A DNA stretch of 61,314 nucleotides from a virus (taxonomy: Duplodnaviria; Caudoviricetes). The notes beneath the pieces are model-generated. The model saw only the letters and a list, made by a program, of their open reading frames with translations, had not been told where the DNA came from and searched no databases. This document shows, piece after piece, positions 43,565-57,522 of this stretch (its first letter is position 1; each line of letters opens with the position of its first letter). Made by a program: the position numbers and the translations under genes. The stretch lies in IMG/VR virus record IMGVR_UViG_3300025288_000022, positions 1 through 61,314 of that record. One strand, 5' to 3'.

Positions 43565-44094
43565 GTTCCCCTGTTAGAAGAGACAAGACCACCCATAGGG
43601 TCGTGGGCAAAGTCATACTCAAACTTTTGGTTGGACATGGAGAAGTGGTGGTTTGCATTGTGGGCGAGAGGGGGGCCTTGGCAGCAACCCATGAGAAGAG
43701 CCAGATCCTCTTCAGAAAGCCATTCCCACCAATGGATGAATTCCTTGGGGTCCTTGACAACACCTTCTTTGCGGTTTTCAATCTCCTTACGGAGTAAGAT
43801 CCCTAGGAAGTCGGTGCCACCCCCCTTGTGGAGTTCTTCAGTGGCGTTTTGGATGAGCCCTGCTAGAGCACTGGCCCAGGTCTTCTTGTCCGCTGAAGGG
43901 CCTTCAACCTCAATGGCTAGGTCTTCCTTACGGACAAGGGCGAACCTGTTGGGTGCAAGGGTCACCCAACACCCGTTGAAGCTCATCGTATGCTCAAGTA
44001 GCTTGGTCTTGGGCGGGCAGTACTGTTGAATTCGGTGCAACAAACAGTCGTAGTCTTCCAAAGGAACCTCCTTGAGTGTCCTTACCCGCTTCAA
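43561..44094 (-). CDS. Hypothetical protein
   Basis: 177-aa ORF coupled to the deaminase start. Confidence 0.65.
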   Translation of the reverse strand: MKRVRTLKEVPLEDYDCLLHRIQQYCPPKTKLLEHTMSFNGCWVTLAPNRFALVRKEDLAIEVEGPSADKKTWASALAGLIQNATEELHKGGGTDFLGILLRKEIENRKEGVVKDPKEFIHWWEWLSEEDLALLMGCCQGPPLAHNANHHFSMSNQKFEYDFAHDPMGGLVSSNRGT

Positions 44095-44116
44095 GGTGGG
44101 GTGCTAACTTTCAAAC

Positions 44117-44151
44117 AAAAAAAAAGGCTGTCCGGTGAAGGACAGCCTTTT
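44117..44151 (-). terminator. Terminator closing the tRNA array
   Basis: AAAAGGCTGTCC-TTCACC-GGACAGCC followed by 9 U on the minus strand. Confidence 0.9.
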
Positions 44152-44239
44152 TGGAGGAAGCGGTGGGATTCGAACCCACGGAGGTTTGACCCCCGCTAGT
44201 TTTCAAGACTAGATCCATCGACCACTCGGACACGCTTCC
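44152..44239 (-). tRNA. tRNA-Ser(UGA)
   Basis: Manual cloverleaf; CTAGT-CT TGA AA-ACTAG; long variable arm; encoded CCA. Confidence 0.92.
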
Positions 44240-44282
44240 TGATGCGGGTACCGTTACTCCTTCTGCACATGGCAGATGAGCT

Positions 44283-44370
44283 TGGTGGGAGAGGAGGGAC
44301 TCGAACCCCCGACGACCGAAGTGCCGCGTTTACAGCGTGGTGTGGACTACCAACATCACACAACTCTCCC
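44283..44370 (-). tRNA. tRNA-Tyr(GUA), copy with an A-C mismatch in the anticodon stem
   Basis: CCACG-CT GTA AA-CGCGG; encoded CCA. Confidence 0.85.
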
Positions 44371-44387
44371 AGAATTCCACCATCCCA

Positions 44388-44473
44388 TGGTGCAGCCAGT
44401 GGGACTCGAACCCACACACCCTTACGAGCACTGGCACCTGAAGCCAGCGTGTCTGCCATTTCACCATGGCTGC
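44388..44473 (-). tRNA. tRNA-Leu(CAG)
   Basis: CTGGC-TT CAG GT-GCCAG; encoded ACCA. Confidence 0.92.
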
Positions 44474-44475
44474 AT

Positions 44476-44568
44476 TGGCAGAAGAGATGGGAATTGAACC
44501 CACGGACCCCTTTTGGGGGTCACCAGTTTTCCAAACTGGCACAGCTCACCAACCTCTGTCGCTCTTCT
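44476..44568 (-). tRNA. tRNA-Ser(GGA) with C8
   Basis: CCAGT-TT GGA AA-ACTGG; long variable arm; GCCA end. Confidence 0.88.
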
Positions 44569-44579
44569 GTATTGGTCAT

Positions 44580-44670
44580 TGGCGGAGAAGATGGGAATTG
44601 AACCCACGGACCCTATTGAGGCCCTCCGTTTTCGAAACGGACACAGCCCACCAACCTCTGTTGCTTCCCC
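44580..44670 (-). tRNA. tRNA-Ser(CGA) with C8 and G3:U70
   Basis: TCCGT-TT CGA AA-ACGGA; acceptor GGGGAAG/CTTCTCC; GCCA end. Confidence 0.88.
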
Positions 44671-44744
44671 GGAAAAGGTGGAATCGAACCACCATTACTA
44701 GAATTAGCCCACAATAGTGGGCTGCAGATCCTCAACATCTTCCG
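44670..44744 (-). ncRNA. tRNA-like element (acceptor and T arm intact, no canonical anticodon loop, no CCA)
   Basis: CGGAAGA/TTTTCCG stem; GGTGG-TTCGATT-CCACC T arm; AGCCCAC-TATT-GTGGGCT hairpin. Confidence 0.55.
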
Positions 44745-44749
44745 CTCTT

Positions 44750-44826
44750 TGGCAGGAGGGGTGGGAATCGAACTCACCACATCTGGTTTTGGAAACCGGA
44801 TCGCCATCCCTGGGACATGCCCCCCT
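44750..44826 (-). tRNA. tRNA-Trp(CCA), atypical (C8, stem mismatches)
   Basis: CCGGT-TT CCA AA-ACCAG; acceptor AGGGGGG/CCCTCCT; GCCA end. Confidence 0.8.
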
Positions 44827-44830
44827 GCAA

Positions 44831-44916
44831 TGGTGCAGCCAGTGGGAGTTGAACCCACACGCCCTTACGAGCACAGCCACCTCAAGGCTGCGTGTCTGCC
44901 ATTTCACCATGGCTGC
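44831..44916 (-). tRNA. tRNA-Leu(GAG)
   Basis: CAGCC-TT GAG GT-GGCTG; ACCA end. Confidence 0.92.
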
Positions 44917-44930
44917 ATAAGAAATCCAAT

Positions 44931-45016
44931 TGGTGCTCATGGTGGGACTCGAACCCACACGCCCTTACGAGCAAGGGATTTTAAGTCCCCAATGTCTACC
45001 ATTCCACCACACGAGC
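44931..45016 (-). tRNA. tRNA-Leu(UAA)
   Basis: GGGGA-CT TAA AA-TCCCT; ACCA end. Confidence 0.92.
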
Positions 45017-45019
45017 ATT

Positions 45020-45106
45020 TGGAGGAAGGCAGGAGAGTCGAACTCCAATGCTTTCACATCGATCCGTTTAGCAAACGGGCCCCTGTCCACACAGGGATTA
45101 CCTTCC
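45020..45106 (-). tRNA. tRNA-Ser(GCU) with 8/4 fold
   Basis: Acceptor GGAAGGTA/TGCCTTCC (8 bp); T stem GGAG/CTCC (4 bp); 6-bp D stem; loop TT GCT AA. Confidence 0.85.
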
Positions 45107-45113
45107 AAAAACA

Positions 45114-45201
45114 TGGTGGGAGAGGAGGGACTCGAACCCCCGACGACCGAAGTGCCGCGTTTACAGCGCGGTGTGGACTACCAACATCACACAACTCTCC
45201 C
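45114..45201 (-). tRNA. tRNA-Tyr(GUA)
   Basis: CCGCG-CT GTA AA-CGCGG; ACCA end. Confidence 0.9.
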
Positions 45202-45218
45202 AGAATTCCACCATTCCA

Positions 45219-45304
45219 TGGTGCAGCCAGTGGGACTCGAACCCACACACCCTAGAGTACAGGTGCCTAAAACCTGCGCGTCTACCAAATTCCGCCATGG
45301 CTGC
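45219..45304 (-). tRNA. tRNA-Leu(UAG)
   Basis: CAGGT-TT TAG GC-ACCTG; ACCA end. Confidence 0.92.
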
Positions 45305-45315
45305 ATAATTGAAAA

Positions 45316-45390
45316 GGGAGGGCAAGTTGAGGAGTCGAACCTCTCTAATACCTTTGCTAGAGTACGCAAGTTGACGCTTGCTTGGTGCCC
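45316..45390 (-). ncRNA. Second tRNA-like element or pseudo-tRNA
   Basis: GGGCA/TGCCC ends; GAGG-TTCGACT-CCTC T arm; ends TCCC; no recognisable anticodon arm. Confidence 0.5.
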
Positions 45391-45408
45391 ATTAAAAACC
45401 CAACAAGT

Positions 45409-45493
45409 TGGTGCGGAAGGTGGGATTCGAACCCACATGCCTTTTGGGCAAGGGTTTTTGAGACCCTCATGTCTGCCTTTCCATCACTCCCGC
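45409..45493 (-). tRNA. tRNA-Leu(CAA)
   Basis: AGGGT-CT CAA AA-ACCCT; ACCA end. Confidence 0.92.
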
Positions 45494-45552
45494 ATAGGCC
45501 CCGTTGGTGTTGGGGCTTTACATCCTTATTCAGGTTTTCAATCTGTCTCTAC

Positions 45553-45578
45553 TACGCTGAGGTCTTCACTTTTGAAAC
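45553..45578 (-). promoter_or_regulatory. GTTTCA-N14-AGCGTA promoter motif between the attenuator and the first tRNA
   Basis: Same spacing as seven other copies; lies inside the inverted repeat 45549-45591. Confidence 0.6.
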
Positions 45579-45614
45579 CTTTGCGTAGTAGGTTTCTTTG
45601 AAACGGAATCTTAC

Positions 45615-45655
45615 AAAGAAAAAGCCCCTTCTGGTTGGTGTTCCGGAGGGGCTTT
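45615..45655 (-). terminator. Attenuator terminator upstream of the tRNA array
   Basis: GCCCCTCCGG-AACACCAA-CCAGAAGGGGC followed by TTTTTCTTT. Confidence 0.85.
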
Positions 45656-45683
45656 GCTCTGATTCGCAATTGGCGTTACGAGA

Positions 45684-45773
45684 TCAGGTGCCTCCTCCGG
45701 AGCACGAGAGCCACAAGCTTGGCCGATATGACAAGCTGGACAATAAGGTGGCGCTGGGGAGGAGGTTGTTCAT
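45684..45773 (-). CDS. Putative leaderless attenuator leader peptide MNNLLPSATLLSSLSYRPSLWLSCSGGGT (29 aa)
   Basis: ATG 7 nt after the -10 box; 16/29 codons are Leu/Ser/Tyr/Trp; its 3' end is complementary to the terminator 5' arm. Confidence 0.8.
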   Translation of the reverse strand: MNNLLPSATLLSSLSYRPSLWLSCSGGGT

Positions 45774-45779
45774 GTCGCC

Positions 45780-45808
45780 AACATACTCTCTGTGTTGTGC
45801 GCCGTCAA
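45780..45808 (-). promoter_or_regulatory. Sigma70-type promoter TTGACG-N17-TATGTT
   Basis: -35 at 45803-45808, -10 at 45780-45785, AT-rich UP-like region upstream. Confidence 0.8.
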
Positions 45809-45843
45809 GAGGATATTTCTTGAAAATAGTTTCCTACCCTATA

Positions 45844-46074
45844 TTAGCGCTTCAGGAACGAAGCAGCCGCCTGCCATCCCACAGCCGTGAGCTGCCTGAG
45901 GCCCTGGTTATCCACTCGTTTAGATAGCCACCCTTTTTGAAGGGCGTGTTCAAAGTACAAGTTGGGAAGGGTGTGGGTCACAAGGTCCTCTTCCTTGAGT
46001 CCCTTGTTGATGATGGCTAGGTTAGCCCAGTCCACAAGGATTTGTCGAGTACGTTGGTCAATAAAGGCAGACTC
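45844..46074 (-). CDS. Small hypothetical protein
   Basis: ORF ending before the tRNA promoter; start uncertain, may extend to 46093 or 46110. Confidence 0.5.
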   Translation of the reverse strand, partial: ESAFIDQRTRQILVDWANLAIINKGLKEEDLVTHTLPNLYFEHALQKGWLSKRVDNQGLRQLTAVGWQAAASFLKR

Positions 46075-46159
46075 TGCTTTGCTTCGTTCCATCCGGATCC
46101 TCGAGGTCAATAGGTGTCTTATAACACGGGAGGATTATATCTACTAGGGGTAGCCCACC

Positions 46160-47005
46160 ATGGCTCATGTTGATTATCGTTCCGAGGCTATCCATCTTGC
46201 GGCATCTTTCCCTGCGGGAAGCGAGGATCGTGTCCAGATTCTTGCCTCCCTCAATGAGGAGCAGATTCTGAAGATGGCTATCAGCAAGGACACCGAAGCC
46301 TTCCTTTCATGGGCTCTCCAGCGAAATGACGAGATGAGTCCTTCGTCAGTTGAGCGCTTTCTGGAGAAGGTTACAGGCCATGAAGCAACACAGCCTGTGG
46401 ATGCTGTGAAGCCAAAGCGTGGGCCTTTGGAGGAGGGTGAGATCATCCTTTGTGATGCGCATCGCAATGGCAATCCCCAGAACGTGGAGGCTTGCGAGAA
46501 GTATCATGACCGCGTTGGGGTGGTGAAGGGTCGTACACCTGAAGGCCTTGTGATCCAGTTCTACCGCAAGGATACGGATCAGCCCGAGTCAGGTGCTGTG
46601 GCTTTCTTTGATGGTGTGGCTTCTGGCAAGGGCACTGGTCTGTACCGCTGGACGATGAAGGCAGACTACCAGGAGCGTGCTGTGTCAAACATGGCTCTTC
46701 TTGAGATCGTCTATCTGCGTGGGGGCACAACCCCACCTCCTCAGCGTGACATTGATGCTCTCCAGAAGTACGTTGAAGAGGGCCTTTCCCGTGGTGAGAA
46801 TCGTTCGGAGATCTACCAGACTGGGTATGTTGGGAAGTTCGCCTACAGCAAGGAAGGCAACATGTACTTCGTGCTGTCTTCCCAGCAGCGTGACCGTCCT
46901 ACGACCATCAGCCCAACCAAGGGTCGCATCTTGTACCTAGGGTATGTGGGTAAGCGTCCAGGTGGTTGGAAGGCTGATGCCAAGTCTATGGGTATTGCTG
47001 TCTAA
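46160..47005 (+). CDS. Hypothetical protein with shared leader (AIHLAASFPAGSEDRVQILASL)
   Basis: 281 aa; biased codons. Confidence 0.75.
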   Translation: MAHVDYRSEAIHLAASFPAGSEDRVQILASLNEEQILKMAISKDTEAFLSWALQRNDEMSPSSVERFLEKVTGHEATQPVDAVKPKRGPLEEGEIILCDAHRNGNPQNVEACEKYHDRVGVVKGRTPEGLVIQFYRKDTDQPESGAVAFFDGVASGKGTGLYRWTMKADYQERAVSNMALLEIVYLRGGTTPPPQRDIDALQKYVEEGLSRGENRSEIYQTGYVGKFAYSKEGNMYFVLSSQQRDRPTTISPTKGRILYLGYVGKRPGGWKADAKSMGIAV

Positions 47006-52269: not shown

Positions 52270-55200
52270 ATGGCTAACTTTCCCGGCAAGAATTACGCTC
52301 CTCCTGGTGTCTACACACGGACCCAGTACGAGAACCCCACGCAACCTCTCTTGGCGGGCCTGAAGCTCCCCATGTTCCTAGGGACAGGATCTGAGATCCT
52401 ATCCCAGATGGACTTGGAAGTTGTCCGTGGCAGCTCCTCCAAGGTTGACCAGCGTGTGGTTGGTGAGGATATGGCGGGTCGCTCCGTAGTGTCTATCAGC
52501 AACACGGGCGTTATCACTTTGGGTGCTTTCGACGGGGTGCAGGACCGCATTCAGGTTCGCAACTACCCGGTGGTTACCGGTGCAGGCACTGGCACCACGG
52601 CGACAGATTCTAGCGCCGTGTCTGTGACCATCAATGACCTCCCAGTGGTTGTGCTCCAGATGTCAGGCACAACTGGTGTGTTCAAGCTCTCTACCGCCCC
52701 CAAGCTTGGTGATGTGGTTAGGGTGTCCTACTTCTTCAACCGCACAGACACTCAGACGACAGATGCTGTGTCAGCCCAGGTTGACAGTACCACAGCCATT
52801 ATCTATGGTGCAATGGCTGAGTCCTACACCATCGTAACAGGGGAGAATGATACCCTAGCTTTTACGGTGGATGATGCAACCAGTGTCTCTGTGACAATCC
52901 CTGCATCCAACACAGGGGCTCCATGGTCGGCCTCACAAATGGCTTCGTTCATCAACAGCGGTGCCTTTGGCACCTCGTTGGTGGCTTCAGCCTACGTTAA
53001 CAACTTTGGTGTGAATGCTGTCCAGTTGGTTGCAGATCGCAACCTTGTTGTTGGCAATGGCACGGCCAACTCCACCGTTGGTTTCACGAATGGTGATGCC
53101 ACCCTCCGCAACAAGACCTTTTACACCTTTGAGGGGCCTATTGTTGATGGGACCAACGGTGGTGTGACTACCACGGATCCTGCAGACACCGTGGTGAAGG
53201 TGAACGGGGTTCAGATCATCCCTGTCTCGGTTGATGGCCAGACCCGTGCAGTGGTTCTACCCTTTGCTCCTGAAGTGGGTGCGGTAGTTACGGTTCAGTA
53301 CTACTTCAACACTTGGCAGGATACCTTCGACTATCTTGCACACACGGAAGTCACCACTGTTTTGCGTGCTGGTGCAACTCCTGACCGTTCGGATTACCTC
53401 TCGGGTTCGGATTTTGTCCTCCAGGGTGACAAGATTCTTTGGGGCACTGCTGCCACCGTAGCCTCGGGAGTTCATACTGCGGGCACGTCCTTCTTGGACA
53501 GCACCCAGATCACCCCTACCCTTGTGGATGTACGTCAGTACTTGGCTGAGGCGACCGCTGTGACAAACACCGCTGTCTCTCCTCCACAGACTTCCACGAC
53601 AGTGTTTCAGATGCCTCTGGCACCAACGACAGGTAATGGTCGCTCAACCCCACTGGGTCAGAGTCTGTACCAGTCCGTGACCAACAGCCGTATCGACCTT
53701 CCCACCAACCGTCCAGATCTGGTTCAGGCCTACTGGGGCTTTGGTGTGCAGGACGCTATGGACCGTGGCCCTGTAACGGTCACCAAAGTGGACTCGGCGT
53801 CTTCCACGTTGACACTGGCAAGTGCGGTTCCTGTAGGGGCACAAGTCTTTGTGTCCTTCTACTACAACACCCTTGCCGACCAGGATTACACTCTCACGGT
53901 GGAGAACCCAGGGGCAGCTGGTGTGGGCACCTATAGCATTGTGGATGCTTCTGGTGTAGCACTGCCTACTCCACTCTTCGGCACGAAGTCGGCAGGCCTT
54001 GCTGGTGTGGCTCTCCAGTTCCCATCGGGCTCTGAGCGTTCCCCAGACGTGCGTTTTGAGTCTCCCTTCACCACCACACTCTTCTCAGGTGCGGTGGAAG
54101 AGGATGTGACGGTCACTTTTGCGTCACTGGACTCTACGCTTGCTAAGTTCAGCGTAGGCGGTTCCAATACCTACTACGCAATCTCGGGTGCTTCGGATAA
54201 CCTCAACGTACTGGTGGATGGTTCTTCGGTCACAGGCAGTGCGGTGAACTTCACGGCTGTGAACGGTGTGTCTGGCCTTGGATTTCATGCATCTCTCCTT
54301 GGAGAGGAGGTTTCCTACACGGCTGCTTCGGGTGACACCACCTTTGTGATCGACAGCACCAACAGCGAGATCAACCTCACGGTAGATGGCAAGCTGATTG
54401 CTGGTGTTGCAAATCAGGGTGCTTCACAGACCATTGCCGCTTATGCTGCGGCAATTAACCGTGCTTCGGTTGGTGAGCAGGGTACTGCGGCTGCAGGTGG
54501 GGCTAGCAGCATCACCTTCACAGCTGCGGCTTCTGATCAGACCGACTACTACGTTGGCTGGACCGTGGTCCTAACCAATAACACCGTAGTAGGCACCCAA
54601 GGCCTCACCGCAACGGTTACGGCCTACAATGGGTCAACGAAGGTTGCAACGGTCACCCCAGGATGGGCAACCGTTCCGGATGCAACGACCACCTTCGCGG
54701 TCTTTGACCCTGCGGCTCGTCCTCAGTACATTGGGGCAACAAAGTTCTCCTCCGCATCCACCATCACCGCTGGTGAGTATGACACCCTTGTATTCCACTA
54801 CACGGGTGACGTGACGGGAGTATCGGGCAACTTGACGGCCGTGGTGGCCCCTGCCACCTACGCCTCTGCTACGGCCCTTGCTGTGGCAGTTAATGCTGCT
54901 ATTGCGACCCAGGTTGCAACCTTGGGCTCGGCTTTTGACGGTGTCGAGGTGGCGGTTACTGCCAATGCCAACGCTCAGCTGGTCTTCAGCCTCACCAAGG
55001 CTGGTCTGGACGGTGCTGGGTTCCTTGAGTTCATCACGGGTGTGTCTACGGCAGACTTTGCAATCCTTGGTGGCATCTCCACTGCAGCTGCTACTGTTGG
55101 AGGGCAGGTGAAGTTGGTGGATGGTCCTGTGGCTAGGGCCTTCCGAGACATTGGCAACAACACTGGTGCATACCTGAATGACCGTCTGGTCCTGCGTAAC

Positions 55201-57522
55201 CGTTTGGTTCCAGGTGCAGGTTCGGTGGACCACCAGTGGTCCGTGGACCAGTCTTCCCTGCAGGTGGAAGGTTCTTCGGGAGCCGCACAGGCGGGTCTTG
55301 TGGTTAACTCCACTGGCTCTGCTGGTTGGCATGCTACGGTCATTCCTGCCACACTGGCGGGTGTGGTTGGGTTTGCGGACGGTCAGGCACCTACAGGCAC
55401 CTACGGTGATGCTCGTGATGGCCAGCCTGTGGTGACCTTCTACGCTGCGGGCGGCACCACCGCACAGAACAACGAGTTCAAGTTCCTCGTGGACGGTGTC
55501 CCTGTGACAGTGCTCTTCACGGATGCATCCGGTGTGGCGATTGCCACGGGTGGCACCGCTGATGTTCCTGTGGGCCCCAGTTTGGTGGCAAACACTGTGA
55601 TCAACCAGATTGCAGTGGCCATGGCCAATGCAGGCTTGGCGGGTTCGGCTGCAGCGGTCATTGCTGCTGGCATGTTGGTACAAGAGGGTGCAGGATTCCG
55701 AATCCGTTCGGCTCTGTCCTCTACCCTTGGGACGATCACCATTGGGGCCTCGAATGCTAACACCCGTCTTGGGTTTGTGTCAGGCGCTTCGGCAAGCCGT
55801 AGCTTGGCTACTCCCAAGAAGATGGCTTCTGCTCTGATGGCTCATGCGGGTGCCACCCTAGCCGTTGTGTTGATGACGACTTGGACCACCGGCTTGGCTG
55901 CCACGGGTTACTTCGCGGGTGAGGCTCTTGCAGGTGTTGTGCAGGATGCATCCAATGCAGAGTACCTTTTCTTCCAGAGCATGGGTAATGCAGGACGTGG
56001 CGTGTCGTCTTCGATTGCCTTTGCGGCTGCTGCAACACAGTCTGCCCTTCTCCCCGGAGTTGGGTTGGGTGTGGTTGCTGGAGATGGTGCCTCGGGGGAG
56101 GTTGGTGTCTCCGGATACTACGTCACCAGCACGGATGCTCTAAATGGGTCGGGTACGGCAAACACCTCCATGCTCAACACAGGTTCGGGCCAGGATGGCA
56201 TCATTGGCCAGACCTACCGTGACTCTGTCACTGGCTTGACCTTCACCGTGCTAGAGCGTGCTGGTGGCATTGCTTACCCAGCGGGTGAGACCTTCACCTT
56301 CACGGTCCGTAATGTGACAACCTCGGACTCGAACCTCCCTATCCGTACCGTCCCTGGTGTGGAGCTTCTGGTGACCAACACCTTGGGTGTCGGCGTGCAG
56401 GATACAGCCAAGGTGTCTACGTTCAAGCGTAGTGGCAACGAGCCTACTATTGGGGACACCTACTACATCTCCTACGAGTACCAGAAGCGTGACTTCACGG
56501 CCAAGGTCTACACCAAGTTTGCTACTCTTCAAGCAGAGTATGGGGCAAACAGCCCTCAGAACCCTGTGACCCTTGCCAGTTACCTTGCCATTTTGAATGG
56601 TGCGGTTCTGGTTGGTGTGAAGCAGGTTGAGAAAGATATTGACGAGAACAATGATGGCATCCCAGACTCAGCGTCTGTGACCTCCTTCATTTCGTCTGTA
56701 GACGCCCTAGAGGGCGCTATGTCTGGCAACGTGCTGCCCAACATTCTAATCCCGCTGGATGTCCCCAGCGCCAGCACAGCGGACTTCTTGGCCTACATCA
56801 CACGCCATGCAGACATTCAGTCTACCATCCGTTACCGTGCAGAGCGGACGGTTCTTGCCGGATTCCCTGCAGGGACTACCCCAAGGACGGCAGGTGACAT
56901 TGCCGAGTCCATCAAGCGCTCTCGTCTGCGCGTGGTGTACCCTGACATTGCCACCCTTGTTCTGACTCAGGCGGATGGTACGGAGCAGGAGTTCTTGGTG
57001 GATGGCACCATGCTTGCTGCGTCACTAGCAGGAAGCGTGGTCAAGCCCTCTGTGGACGTGGCTACTGCTTGGACAGGGCGTAAGCTCTATGGGATCAAGC
57101 AAATTGCTCGAATCCTGAATGTCGTGGAACAGAACCAGTTGGCCGTTCGTGGTGTGACAATCCTTGAGGACAACAGCCCAGCGGTTCGCGTCCGTCAGGG
57201 CTTCACCACGGATATGTCATCTATCCTGACAAAGACCCCAACGGTCACCCCAATCGCTGACGAAGTACAGCAGCAGACACGCAACACGCTGGACCGCTTC
57301 ACTGGCATCAAGTTCCTACCCGGAATTTTGAGCCAAGTTGAAGGCCAGACTTCCACCACCCTGAAGCTTTTGGTGGATGCAGAGATCCTGGCAAAATACA
57401 CGGGCGTCCGTGCCCAGGTTGTGGCAGGAGATCCTACAGCAGCAGAGGTGGAGGCATTCTACCAACCTGTTTTCCCCCTACTCTACCTAATCGTTTCCTT
57501 CAACCTGAGATCCTCGCTTTAA
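52270..57522 (+). CDS. Contractile tail sheath protein with large inserted beta domains (1750 aa)
   Basis: N-terminal PPGVYT; C-terminal NQLAVRGVTILE..VRQGFTT...YQPVFPLLYLIVSF sheath motifs. Confidence 0.9.
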   Translation: MANFPGKNYAPPGVYTRTQYENPTQPLLAGLKLPMFLGTGSEILSQMDLEVVRGSSSKVDQRVVGEDMAGRSVVSISNTGVITLGAFDGVQDRIQVRNYPVVTGAGTGTTATDSSAVSVTINDLPVVVLQMSGTTGVFKLSTAPKLGDVVRVSYFFNRTDTQTTDAVSAQVDSTTAIIYGAMAESYTIVTGENDTLAFTVDDATSVSVTIPASNTGAPWSASQMASFINSGAFGTSLVASAYVNNFGVNAVQLVADRNLVVGNGTANSTVGFTNGDATLRNKTFYTFEGPIVDGTNGGVTTTDPADTVVKVNGVQIIPVSVDGQTRAVVLPFAPEVGAVVTVQYYFNTWQDTFDYLAHTEVTTVLRAGATPDRSDYLSGSDFVLQGDKILWGTAATVASGVHTAGTSFLDSTQITPTLVDVRQYLAEATAVTNTAVSPPQTSTTVFQMPLAPTTGNGRSTPLGQSLYQSVTNSRIDLPTNRPDLVQAYWGFGVQDAMDRGPVTVTKVDSASSTLTLASAVPVGAQVFVSFYYNTLADQDYTLTVENPGAAGVGTYSIVDASGVALPTPLFGTKSAGLAGVALQFPSGSERSPDVRFESPFTTTLFSGAVEEDVTVTFASLDSTLAKFSVGGSNTYYAISGASDNLNVLVDGSSVTGSAVNFTAVNGVSGLGFHASLLGEEVSYTAASGDTTFVIDSTNSEINLTVDGKLIAGVANQGASQTIAAYAAAINRASVGEQGTAAAGGASSITFTAAASDQTDYYVGWTVVLTNNTVVGTQGLTATVTAYNGSTKVATVTPGWATVPDATTTFAVFDPAARPQYIGATKFSSASTITAGEYDTLVFHYTGDVTGVSGNLTAVVAPATYASATALAVAVNAAIATQVATLGSAFDGVEVAVTANANAQLVFSLTKAGLDGAGFLEFITGVSTADFAILGGISTAAATVGGQVKLVDGPVARAFRDIGNNTGAYLNDRLVLRNRLVPGAGSVDHQWSVDQSSLQVEGSSGAAQAGLVVNSTGSAGWHATVIPATLAGVVGFADGQAPTGTYGDARDGQPVVTFYAAGGTTAQNNEFKFLVDGVPVTVLFTDASGVAIATGGTADVPVGPSLVANTVINQIAVAMANAGLAGSAAAVIAAGMLVQEGAGFRIRSALSSTLGTITIGASNANTRLGFVSGASASRSLATPKKMASALMAHAGATLAVVLMTTWTTGLAATGYFAGEALAGVVQDASNAEYLFFQSMGNAGRGVSSSIAFAAAATQSALLPGVGLGVVAGDGASGEVGVSGYYVTSTDALNGSGTANTSMLNTGSGQDGIIGQTYRDSVTGLTFTVLERAGGIAYPAGETFTFTVRNVTTSDSNLPIRTVPGVELLVTNTLGVGVQDTAKVSTFKRSGNEPTIGDTYYISYEYQKRDFTAKVYTKFATLQAEYGANSPQNPVTLASYLAILNGAVLVGVKQVEKDIDENNDGIPDSASVTSFISSVDALEGAMSGNVLPNILIPLDVPSASTADFLAYITRHADIQSTIRYRAERTVLAGFPAGTTPRTAGDIAESIKRSRLRVVYPDIATLVLTQADGTEQEFLVDGTMLAASLAGSVVKPSVDVATAWTGRKLYGIKQIARILNVVEQNQLAVRGVTILEDNSPAVRVRQGFTTDMSSILTKTPTVTPIADEVQQQTRNTLDRFTGIKFLPGILSQVEGQTSTTLKLLVDAEILAKYTGVRAQVVAGDPTAAEVEAFYQPVFPLLYLIVSFNLRSSL

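What the first reader, a model, noticed from the sequence alone, without database searches (positions are those of the whole stretch)
45493..45808. Candidate tRNA-depletion sensor: a ribosome-stalling attenuator controlling a phage tRNA array
Seen on the minus strand: promoter TTGACG-N17-TATGTT, then an ATG 7 nt after the -10 box (leaderless) opening a 29-codon ORF: ATG AAC AAC CTC CTC CCC AGC GCC ACC TTA TTG TCC AGC TTG TCA TAT CGG CCA AGC TTG TGG CTC TCG TGC TCC GGA GGA GGC ACC TGA. Thirteen of codons 10-25 are Leu/Ser/Tyr/Trp, exactly the four amino acids of the downstream array. The synonymous codons are varied so that 9 of the 11 anticodons are sampled (TTG, TTA, CTC, AGC, TCC, TCA, TCG, TAT, TGG; only CTA and CTG are missing). 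The ORF 3' end TCCGGAGG-A-GGC pairs with GCC-CCTCCGGA in the 5' arm of the following U-tailed terminator (antiterminator). CCTCCTCC at codons 3-6 pairs with GGAGGAGG (anti-antiterminator). Established: this is the 1:2/2:3/3:4 logic of trp/his/pheST attenuators, and anti-phage nucleases (PrrC, PARIS AriB, retron Ec78 PtuAB) destroy tRNAs that phage tRNAs can replace. Inference: stalling on depleted tRNAs frees the antiterminator and induces the replacement tRNAs, an inducible counter-defence. I know of no described attenuator governing a phage tRNA array.
Basis: partly seen in the sequence, partly recalled or inferred. Interest (0 to 1): 0.95.

Follow-up and report, generated by a model that had tools for sequence, protein, structure and literature searches.

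The report
Leader-peptide attenuator before phage tRNA array
A short coding stretch made mostly of the very codons that the downstream phage tRNA genes read, followed by a switchable transcription stop signal, sits in front of a tRNA gene cluster of a huge phage and recurs in other huge phages, so these phages probably make more tRNA when decoding slows down.

Summary
On the minus strand a sigma-70-like promoter (45808-45780), an SD-less 29-codon ORF (45773-45684), a U-tailed terminator (45655-45612) and 13 tRNA-like genes (45493-44152: Leu x5, Ser x4, Tyr x2, Trp, one odd) lie in that order. 16 of 28 leader codons are read by the array's tRNAs (shuffle P about 1e-4; rank 1 of 536 small ORFs). 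The ORF 3' end pairs with the terminator's 5' arm (-23 kcal/mol, P about 5e-4) and with codons 3-6.

Two distant relatives (proteins about 50% identical, tRNAs about 75%) keep promoter, ORF, 1:2/2:3/3:4 pairings with changed sequences. Their arrays also hold Thr, Phe and Glu tRNAs, and their leaders have those codons (21/65 against 2/28).

A second leader family with no detectable sequence similarity precedes Asn/Leu/Ile/Val/Thr/Met arrays in AT-rich huge phages (8 of 8 loci).

No Rfam family matches and six literature searches listed no such description. Most likely this is a ribosome-mediated attenuator giving feedback control of tRNA supply. The anti-defence trigger is untested, no RNA data exist, and the geometry is imperfect.

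The parts
45780..45808 (-). Sigma-70-like promoter TTGACG-N17-TATGTT. The -10 hexamer ends 6 nt before the ATG, so a leaderless transcript is predicted.
   Evidence: the only hit in 3 kb, though chance gives 1.5. Relatives have TTGACA-16-TATCCT and TTGACA-17-TAGGGT at the same place.
45684..45773 (-). Leader ORF of 29 codons plus stop, with no Shine-Dalgarno. 16 of 28 codons are read by the downstream tRNAs.
45758..45765 (-). Segment 1, CCUCCUCC (codons 3-6, including two CUC Leu codons). It pairs with segment 2 (anti-antiterminator).
   Evidence: duplex -17.0 kcal/mol.
45690..45701 (-). Segment 2, UCCGGAGGAGGC (codons 25-28). It ends 3 nt before the stop codon and pairs with either segment 1 or segment 3.
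45659..45687 (-). Small hairpin across the stop codon and spacer. It is enclosed by the 2:3 helix in the antiterminator form.
   Evidence: A hairpin at the same place appears in both relatives.
45612..45655 (-). Intrinsic terminator: hairpin AAAGCCCCUCCGG...AGGGGCUUU (-15.8 kcal/mol) followed by UUCUUUG. Its 5' arm (45643-45655) is segment 3.
45549..45591 (-). Long hairpin CUACUACGC...GCGUAGUAG in the spacer between the terminator and the first tRNA. Role unknown.
   Evidence: Read. Not analysed further.
45497..45519 (-). Hairpin AAAGCCCC-AACACCAAC-GGGGCC, 3 nt before the first tRNA. It shares stem and loop with the terminator but lacks the UCCGG insert and the U tail.
   Evidence: Relatives also have a strong hairpin just before the first tRNA.
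44152..45493 (-). Array of 13 tRNA-like genes, in order: Leu-CAA, Leu-TAG, Tyr-GTA, Ser-GCT, Leu-TAA, Leu-GAG, Trp-CCA, odd tRNA-like, Ser-CGA, Ser-GGA, Leu-CAG, Tyr-GTA, Ser-TGA.
44121..44152 (-). Strong terminator that closes the array: 13-bp stem followed by a T run.

Best explanation
This is a ribosome-mediated (leader-peptide) transcription attenuator that governs a phage tRNA array.

Proposed mechanism:
- Transcription starts at the sigma-70-like promoter, and the first AUG opens a short ORF.
- With no ribosome, or with a ribosome that runs to the stop codon and covers segment 2, the terminator hairpin forms and the array is not transcribed.
- If a ribosome stalls early in the leader because a cognate aminoacyl-tRNA is scarce, it covers segment 1. 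Segment 2 then pairs with the terminator's 5' arm, and RNA polymerase reads into the array.
- The array encodes the tRNAs that decode the leader, so the circuit is a direct negative feedback on tRNA supply: scarce tRNA gives read-through, more tRNA then gives fast decoding and termination.

Shown: the sequence anatomy, its statistical support, conservation with changed sequence in relatives, and the match of leader codons to array content.

Inferred: the transcription start, translation of the leader, termination and its relief, and what makes tRNA scarce during infection (host tRNA loss, phage demand or defence nucleases).
For: 1. Anatomy in the window: promoter, first-AUG ORF, terminator and array in order.

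2. In-frame enrichment of array-cognate codons. This matters only if the frame is read.
- Window: 16/28, P = 1e-4.
- G002: 24/32, 0 of 20000 shuffles.
- G001: 22/33, 0 of 20000 shuffles.
- The other frames give 4-9.

3. Antiterminator duplex against shuffles: window 1 of 2000; G002 0 of 1000; G001 P = 0.007.

4. The structural energies have the classic layout: 1:2 region -30.4, 2:3 region -30.3, terminator -15.8 kcal/mol.

5. Conservation with compensatory change. Segment 1:2 is CCUCCUCC:GGAGGAGG in the window and CACCACCUC:GAGGUGGUG in G002; G001 has a third version. All three MFE folds share the architecture. These phages are far apart: a 476-aa protein is 49-51% identical and alignment columns of their tRNAs are 73-78% identical.

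6. Covariation with array content. The arrays of G001 and G002 also hold Thr x3, Phe and Glu tRNAs. Their leaders have 21/65 Thr/Phe/Glu codons against 2/28 in the window (Fisher p = 0.009). Peptide sequence is poorly conserved (9-13 identical residues), so composition rather than the peptide is kept.

7. The stop codon lies 3-10 nt after segment 2 in all three.

8. Ribosome-mask folding. A stall at codons 2-11 (window) or 2-15 (G001) drops the terminator probability to below 0.07 and to 0.47 or less, respectively.

9. A second leader family with no detectable sequence similarity, in AT-rich huge phages.
- LR745206.1 and LR756502.1 carry it.
- 6 of 6 IMG/VR pattern hits lie 15-20 nt before a tRNA-Asn that opens an array.
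- The leader is the best-scoring ORF in 8 of 8 loci, P = 0.0002-0.02.
- The leader contains a copy of the terminator's 3' arm; 2:3 duplex P = 0.001 and 0.003.

10. Controls.
- 42 ORFs before 26 tRNA units of three cultured phages: lowest P = 0.021.
- 105 ORFs before 58 other units: 4 at P <= 0.01. The best of these is the tail of a longer coding frame without a terminator.
Against: - No RNA or ribosome data exist. Promoter, start site, translation and termination are all predictions.
- The window's ORF has no Shine-Dalgarno, although most ATG-start genes of the window have GGAG-like motifs. It needs leaderless initiation. G001 and G002 have 5' UTRs with only distant SD-like motifs (10-12 nt before the ATG).
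- In the equilibrium model, a lone ribosome at codons 13-25 of the window leader leaves the terminator at 0.88-0.94. 10 of the 16 cognate codons lie there.
- In G002 and LR745206.1 the terminator wins at every stall position (0.93-0.95). A kinetic, co-transcriptional argument is needed for them.
- The terminators of G001 and G002 have weak U tracts and are not called by the scan tool.
- A motif, TGACAAsTGAATA, lies between the terminator and the first tRNA in G001 and G002, and also before another G002 array that has no leader. If it is a phage-specific promoter, the attenuator controls only part of array transcription.
- No comparable leader was found before the other tRNA units of G001 and G002.
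- Only three members of this family were found.
Confidence: 0.75

Rival explanations
1. The attenuator is the same, but it is specifically an inducible counter-defence. Host tRNA-cleaving immunity depletes Leu, Ser, Tyr or Trp tRNAs; the leader stalls; and nuclease-resistant phage copies are induced.
For: The window's array is almost entirely long-variable-arm tRNAs (Leu, Ser, Tyr). [quoted passage not shown] Phage tRNAs as an answer to anticodon nucleases: PMC10264068 (abstract seen in the listing).
Against: Nothing in the sequence points to a nuclease as the cause of scarcity. The relatives' arrays and the second family cover ordinary tRNAs (Thr, Phe, Glu, Asn, Ile, Val, Met). The host is unknown. 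Amino-acid starvation or rising phage demand would trigger the same switch.
Confidence: 0.25
2. The promoter-ORF-terminator unit is an independent small gene or small RNA, and the array is transcribed from its own promoter downstream of the terminator. There is no regulatory coupling.
For: The conserved motif TGACAAsTGAATA lies between the terminator and the first tRNA in G001 and G002, and also before another G002 array without a leader. Attenuator-derived RNAs can act in trans (rnTrpL; PMC6614838, abstract seen in the listing).
Against: This does not explain why leader codons match the array in each of 11 loci of two families, nor why they change with array content. It does not explain the conserved complementarity of the ORF end to the terminator's 5' arm. 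No -10-like hexamer lies at promoter spacing after the motif (my reading). The motif is degenerate in the window.
Confidence: 0.1
3. Chance: a spurious ORF in pyrimidine-rich intergenic DNA next to the terminator of the upstream 88-aa gene.
For: The promoter match is at chance level. The terminator could serve the upstream gene, which ends at 45844. The variety of synonymous codons is at chance level.
Against: Frame-specific enrichment has P about 1e-4 and the duplex P about 5e-4. The feature recurs in relatives whose flanking genes differ.
Confidence: 0.02

Closest known systems
Leader-peptide transcription attenuators of amino-acid operons (trpL, hisL, leuL, thrL, ilvL, pheL) and of pheST (pheM) in Proteobacteria
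   Same: Both have a promoter, a short ORF rich in the sensed codons, 1:2 / 2:3 / 3:4 alternative helices, an intrinsic terminator, and a stop codon placed so that a finishing ribosome covers segment 2. Mixed-codon leaders have precedent in thr and ilv (recalled).
   Different: Here the controlled genes are tRNAs, not enzymes or a synthetase, and they are the same tRNAs that read the leader. The element is in a phage. The leader samples up to 7-8 amino acids. The window's copy is predicted to be leaderless. There is no sequence or Rfam similarity.
T-box riboswitches
   Same: Both sense tRNA status and switch a terminator/antiterminator in a 5' leader.
   Different: A T-box binds uncharged tRNA directly and is not translated. 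Here the signal is frame-specific codon content. No Rfam family other than tRNA-clan ones matched 45560-45850 at E <= 1.
Phage tRNA supply as an answer to tRNA-targeting immunity (T5 tRNA-Tyr against retron-Eco7 and Septu; T6 SegB-driven tRNA-Tyr amplification)
   Same: Raising the dose of phage tRNA when tRNA becomes limiting (PMC13096335, passages read).
   Different: Those cases work through early expression or gene amplification. Here a cis-acting RNA switch would adjust transcription.

Membership tests
Ribosome-mediated leader-peptide attenuator (functional class) | A short ORF that begins at the first start codon of the transcript, upstream of the controlled genes | tested here: met
   29-, 33- and 34-codon ORFs follow the promoter-like sites in the window, G002 and G001. 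The transcription start itself is not mapped.
Ribosome-mediated leader-peptide attenuator (functional class) | The ORF is enriched, in frame, in codons tied to the regulated function | tested here: met
   16/28, 24/32 and 22/33 codons, with P <= 1e-4 each. The other frames give 4-9.
Ribosome-mediated leader-peptide attenuator (functional class) | An intrinsic terminator between the ORF and the controlled genes | tested here: met
   Window: -15.8 kcal/mol hairpin plus a U-rich tail. G001 and G002 have hairpins of -18.5 and -30.3 kcal/mol but weak U tracts.
Ribosome-mediated leader-peptide attenuator (functional class) | An antiterminator exclusive with the terminator, and an anti-antiterminator overlapping the early codons | tested here: met
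   2:3 duplex P from <= 0.0005 to 0.007. 1:2 is present in all three MFE folds. 1:2 alone is weakly significant, P = 0.098.
Ribosome-mediated leader-peptide attenuator (functional class) | A ribosome stalled at the regulatory codons favours the antiterminator | tested here: inconclusive
   Equilibrium masking: yes for codons 2-11 (window) and 2-15 (G001). No for codons 13-25 of the window. No at any position in G002 and LR745206.1. Kinetics were not modelled.
Ribosome-mediated leader-peptide attenuator (functional class) | Read-through rises when the cognate charged tRNA is limiting | not testable with these tools
   No RNA run is listed. An experiment is needed.
Rfam leader families (Trp, His, Leu, Thr, Phe leaders) and T-box | A match to the family covariance model | tested here: not met
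   In the window region 43800-46300 at E <= 1, no leader or T-box family matched. In the four relatives' loci at gathering score, only tRNA and tmRNA matched.

The most novel reading that the evidence does not exclude
Huge phages carry a previously undescribed class of cis-acting tRNA-supply sensors. These are leader ORFs that act as codon test tracks for the tRNAs encoded just downstream, and they switch a terminator so that the array regulates itself. The design appears in two leader families with no detectable sequence similarity (GC-rich groundwater phages and AT-rich huge phages). That suggests convergent evolution. It may also serve as an inducible answer to tRNA-cleaving host immunity.
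Probability: 0.55. Interest if true: 0.92.

Novelty: new variant of a known kind. Interest (0 to 1): 0.87.

Why it matters
Why phages carry tRNA genes, and how they use them, has been debated for decades.

An attenuator whose sensor codons are those of the tRNAs it controls would show that phages measure decoding capacity during infection and adjust tRNA output accordingly.

It would be, as far as my searches show, the first leader-peptide attenuation of tRNA genes in any system.

It would also make the supply-versus-defence question directly testable with simple reporters.

Finally, it gives a sequence signature (ORF codon content matching the downstream anticodons, plus a terminator/antiterminator pair) that can be searched for across viral metagenomes.

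Tried and rejected
**Synteny route**
- Relatives of the flanking genes were sought in IMG/VR. The 177-aa and 281-aa proteins had none.
- The 88-aa protein had one homolog in IMG/VR and two in metagenome contigs. None lies next to tRNAs.
- The 476-aa protein had 48 loci. 0 of 48 has a multi-tRNA array nearby.

**BLAST of the array in related records**
- 4 records were searched and one more was not held; only G002 matched.
- 5 records gave tRNA-level matches only, with scattered tRNAs and no Leu/Ser array.
- 10 fragments gave no match.

**Direct searches for the leader**
- The exact 23-nt leader pattern has 0 hits in IMG/VR.
- A degenerate segment-2/terminator pattern finds only G001, G002 and one chance hit inside a coding region.
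- The same pattern in GTDB genomes gives 62 hits, 0 with a same-strand tRNA within 800 nt. No bacterial source was found.
- blastn of the G001 and G002 leaders against GenBank phages gives no match.

**Other attempts**
- RNAalifold on a MAFFT alignment of the three leaders recovered only the terminator, because the 5' part aligns badly. I therefore report the helices per sequence.
- The tRNAs of the three phages are too diverged for a clade-specific pattern.
- No comparable leader lies before the other arrays of G001 and G002.
- A K/E/D-rich ORF that scored well is the tail of a longer frame without a terminator. Three weaker hits in L092 (P = 0.006-0.01) were not followed up.
- Sequencing runs: no RNA holder listed. 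Contigs of four DNA runs showed no variant in the leader and give no expression data.
- LR756511.1 had a single tRNA at the matched place.

**Limits**
- Supplements of papers were not seen. The tRNA tables of PMC7162821 might bear on array content.
Full report
**What the window is.** The window is a 61-kb fragment of a virus record that CheckV puts at 13% complete, so it comes from a huge phage. Its genes include a dCMP deaminase, a head-decoration-like protein and a 1750-aa protein with a tail-sheath domain. Most ATG-start genes have GGAG-like Shine-Dalgarno motifs.

**The observation.** On the minus strand the order is as follows.
- An 88-aa gene ending at 45844.
- TTGACG-N17-TATGTT at 45808-45780.
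- Six bases, then ATG at 45773.
- A 29-codon ORF ending at 45684.
- A 28-nt spacer with a small hairpin.
- A hairpin AAAGCCCCUCCGG...AGGGGCUUU followed by UUCUUUG (45655-45612).
- About 120 nt with two more hairpins.
- The first tRNA at 45493.

Default ARAGORN finds 11 tRNAs. A relaxed run finds 13: Leu-CAA, Leu-TAG, Tyr-GTA, Ser-GCT, Leu-TAA, Leu-GAG, Trp-CCA, an odd tRNA-like gene, Ser-CGA, Ser-GGA, Leu-CAG, Tyr-GTA and Ser-TGA. Rfam sees the two extra ones as weak tRNA-like matches. A 13-bp terminator closes the array at 44152-44121.

**Is it more than chance?**
- 16 of the 28 codons after the ATG are Leu, Ser, Tyr or Trp. This is the highest share among 536 ORFs of 25-60 aa in the window. 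Only 54 of 54229 stop-free 28-codon windows reach it.
- Dinucleotide shuffles reach it 2 times in 20000. The other two frames of the same DNA give 4/29 and 7/29.
- The ORF's 3' end pairs with the terminator's 5' arm at -23.3 kcal/mol, reached by 1 of 2000 shuffles. The pairing of codons 3-6 with the same segment is -17.0 kcal/mol, P = 0.098.
- Regional energies are 1:2 = -30.4, 2:3 = -30.3 and terminator = -15.8 kcal/mol. The MFE shows 1:2 plus the terminator, z = -3.08.
- The promoter match is not significant by itself.
- The variety of synonymous codons (9 of 11 anticodons sampled) is what the peptide's composition gives by chance, P = 0.46-0.75.

**Relatives.** Flanking genes gave no syntenic relatives. 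A BLAST of the array in records that share a 476-aa structural protein (49-51% identical) led to two complete huge phages: G001 (536 kb) and G002 (436 kb).

Both have a homologous array that opens with Leu, Ser, Tyr and Trp tRNAs and also holds Phe, Thr x3 and Glu tRNAs. G002's array also has Arg-CCG.

Directly upstream, both have:
- a TTGACA promoter-like site (for G002; read for G001, where the -10 is TAGGGT);
- the first ATG 25-28 nt after the -10;
- an ORF of 33 or 34 codons;
- a hairpin with a short U tract.

The leader peptides are MNRLFTTTSTTTLSLTWLSRSYLSERRPEVVSG (G002) and MKTLTTSFTERSTVTKGESLTSWYLLSPEGVGGR (G001). I had at first passed over the G001 ORF, because the listed frame starts further upstream inside the promoter.

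**Comparative evidence.**
- 24 of 32 (G002) and 22 of 33 (G001) leader codons are read by that phage's own array. 0 of 20000 shuffles reach this in either case. The other frames give 6-9.
- All 17 and all 16 distinct anticodons are sampled if U34 reads A and G.
- Thr, Phe and Glu codons make up 21 of 65 leader codons in G001 and G002, against 2 of 28 in the window, whose array lacks those tRNAs (Fisher p = 0.009).
- The peptides share only 9-13 identical residues. Composition is kept, not sequence.
- All three MFE folds have the same plan: a long 1:2 helix, a small hairpin after the stop, then the terminator.
- Segment 1:2 is CCUCCUCC:GGAGGAGG in the window, CACCACCUC:GAGGUGGUG in G002, and a third version in G001.
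- The 2:3 duplexes are -20 to -23 kcal/mol, with shuffle P of 0/1000 for G002 and 0.007 for G001.
- The stop codon lies 3-10 nt after segment 2 in all three.
- Alignment columns of the three phages' tRNAs are only 73-78% identical. The design has therefore survived long divergence, and it sits between different flanking genes.

**Geometry.** I folded the leader with a 30-nt ribosome footprint held unpaired.
- Window: a stall with the A site at codons 2-11 drops the terminator probability below 0.07. Codon 12 gives 0.28. Codons 13-30 give 0.84-0.94.
- G001: codons 2-15 give 0.47 or less.
- G002: the -30 kcal/mol terminator wins everywhere at equilibrium.

So the early codons fit the textbook model. 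These include CUC CUC inside segment 1 of the window and the Thr run inside segment 1 of G002. However, 10 of the window's 16 cognate codons lie where a lone stalled ribosome would not free the antiterminator.

Trailing ribosomes queued behind a stalled one, or an initiating ribosome on a leaderless 5' end, would cover segment 1 and widen the sensing range. That is inference. From memory, the terminator of the E. coli trp leader is also more stable than its antiterminator, so the decision there is kinetic. I did not model kinetics.

**A second family.** I looked at an unrelated GenBank huge phage whose tRNAs had matched the window, LR745206.1 (634 kb, AT-rich). Before its array of 19 tRNAs (Asn, Arg, Leu, Val, Ile, Thr, Met) I found:
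- an ORF MTTMNLNMTMNLTLNVVNITLCNIRPTEGSDLFREIVM, with about three quarters of its codons read by the array (27 of 37 after the start codon; P = 6e-4);
- a perfect terminator with a U run;
- inside the ORF, a copy of the terminator's 3' arm, which is an antiterminator.

LR756502.1 has a homologous leader.

A pattern made only of the antiterminator segment and the terminator hit six IMG/VR contigs. All six hits lie 15-20 nt before a tRNA-Asn that opens an array. The leader is the best-scoring upstream ORF in 8 of 8 loci, P = 0.0002-0.02. The 2:3 duplexes have P = 0.001 and 0.003.

In this family too the ATG follows a TATA-rich hexamer by a few bases. In such AT-rich DNA that is weak evidence.

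The G001 and G002 leaders have no blastn match in the GenBank phage collection, which includes these records. No sequence similarity links the two families.

**Controls.**
- Three cultured phages with arrays (DSS3_MAL1, EniLVp02, Aeh1): 26 units, 42 ORFs, lowest P = 0.021.
- Other arrays of G001, G002 and four further records: 58 units, 105 ORFs, four at P <= 0.01. The best is the charged tail of a longer coding frame with no terminator. Three in L092 were not followed up.

The leader is therefore specific, not universal. In G001 and G002 it was found only before the Leu/Ser/Tyr/Trp-led array.

**Known families and literature.**
- Rfam gives no leader or T-box match: E <= 1 in the window region, and gathering score in four relatives' loci, where all 72 matches are tRNA or tmRNA.
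- Six full-text searches listed no paper on leader-peptide attenuation of tRNA genes or of phage tRNA arrays. I saw listings and abstracts only.
- The main text of the huge-phage survey PMC7162821 has no occurrence of 'attenuat', 'leader' or 'terminator'. Its supplements were not seen.
[quoted passage not shown] This makes a dose-raising switch plausible as counter-defence, but it does not test it here.

**Caveats.**
- Nothing is measured. No RNA holder is listed for this DNA.
- The window's ORF needs leaderless initiation.
- G001 and G002 have weak U tracts.
- The motif TGACAAsTGAATA lies between the terminator and the first tRNA in G001 and G002, and also before another G002 array without a leader. 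It has three exact sites in 972 kb, all ahead of tRNA arrays. The window has only degenerate copies. If it is a phage-specific promoter, the attenuator would control only the read-through share of array transcription.

**Verdict.** The finding is real. Its core interpretation, a ribosome-stalling attenuator in front of a phage tRNA array, is well supported by conservation, compensatory change and covariation of leader codons with array content in two families.

The most economical function is negative feedback on tRNA supply. Induction by tRNA-cleaving immunity is a plausible special case and remains untested.

It works like the classical leader-peptide attenuators, but the controlled genes are the tRNAs that read the leader. 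I found no description of this.

Noticed in passing
window 44669-44744 (-): An odd tRNA-like gene inside the array. ARAGORN gives no amino acid and a 2-nt 'anticodon'. The anticodon arm reads as a 7-bp stem with a 4-nt loop, or as 5 bp with an 8-nt loop.
   Followed up: no
window 45612-45655 and 45497-45519 (-): The terminator and the hairpin just before the first tRNA share the stem GCCCC/GGGGC and the loop AACACCAAC, which occurs only at these two sites in the window. The terminator copy has an extra UCCGG that extends the pairing with the ORF end, not its own stem.
   Followed up: partly
L033:2269-2281; L088:5193-5205; G002:C1:123114-123126: The motif TGACAAsTGAATA has only 3 exact sites in 972 kb of G001 plus G002. 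All three lie ahead of tRNA arrays, and one is before an array without a leader. In G002 about 45 nt around it is repeated. It may be a promoter or a processing signal.
   Followed up: partly
L033:2579-3118 (+): A 179-aa ORF with an HNH-like motif sits between two tRNA-Tyr-GTA copies in G001's array. This recalls the homing endonuclease SegB next to tRNA-Tyr in T6 (PMC13096335).
   Followed up: no
L043:772-935 (-); L033:7499-7587 (+); L171: ARAGORN reports tRNA-like genes with 4-nt anticodons (ggga twice, tgaa, acat) in the relatives. They may be quadruplet-decoding tRNAs or degenerate copies.
   Followed up: no
L088:10689-11049 (+); L070:7515-7891 (+): Phage-borne tmRNA genes. In G002 the tmRNA follows the attenuated array (Rfam 168 bits; tag ANDEAVLQAA).
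   Followed up: no
LR745206.1 (L098:6408-6605, -); LR756502.1 (L167:5021-5190); L168-L173: A second leader-attenuator family lies before Asn-led tRNA arrays of AT-rich huge phages. It has five distinct leader peptides in 8 loci.
   Followed up: yes
window 44100-45850 compared with L034-L081: The leader-plus-array module has different neighbours in each phage. 0 of 48 loci with the neighbouring 476-aa gene carry it, so it moves as a unit or its flanks turn over.
   Followed up: partly
window 52270-57522 (+): A 1750-aa protein whose last 365 residues match a tail-sheath family (phrog_2839, 6e-22). This is unusually long for a sheath protein.
   Followed up: no
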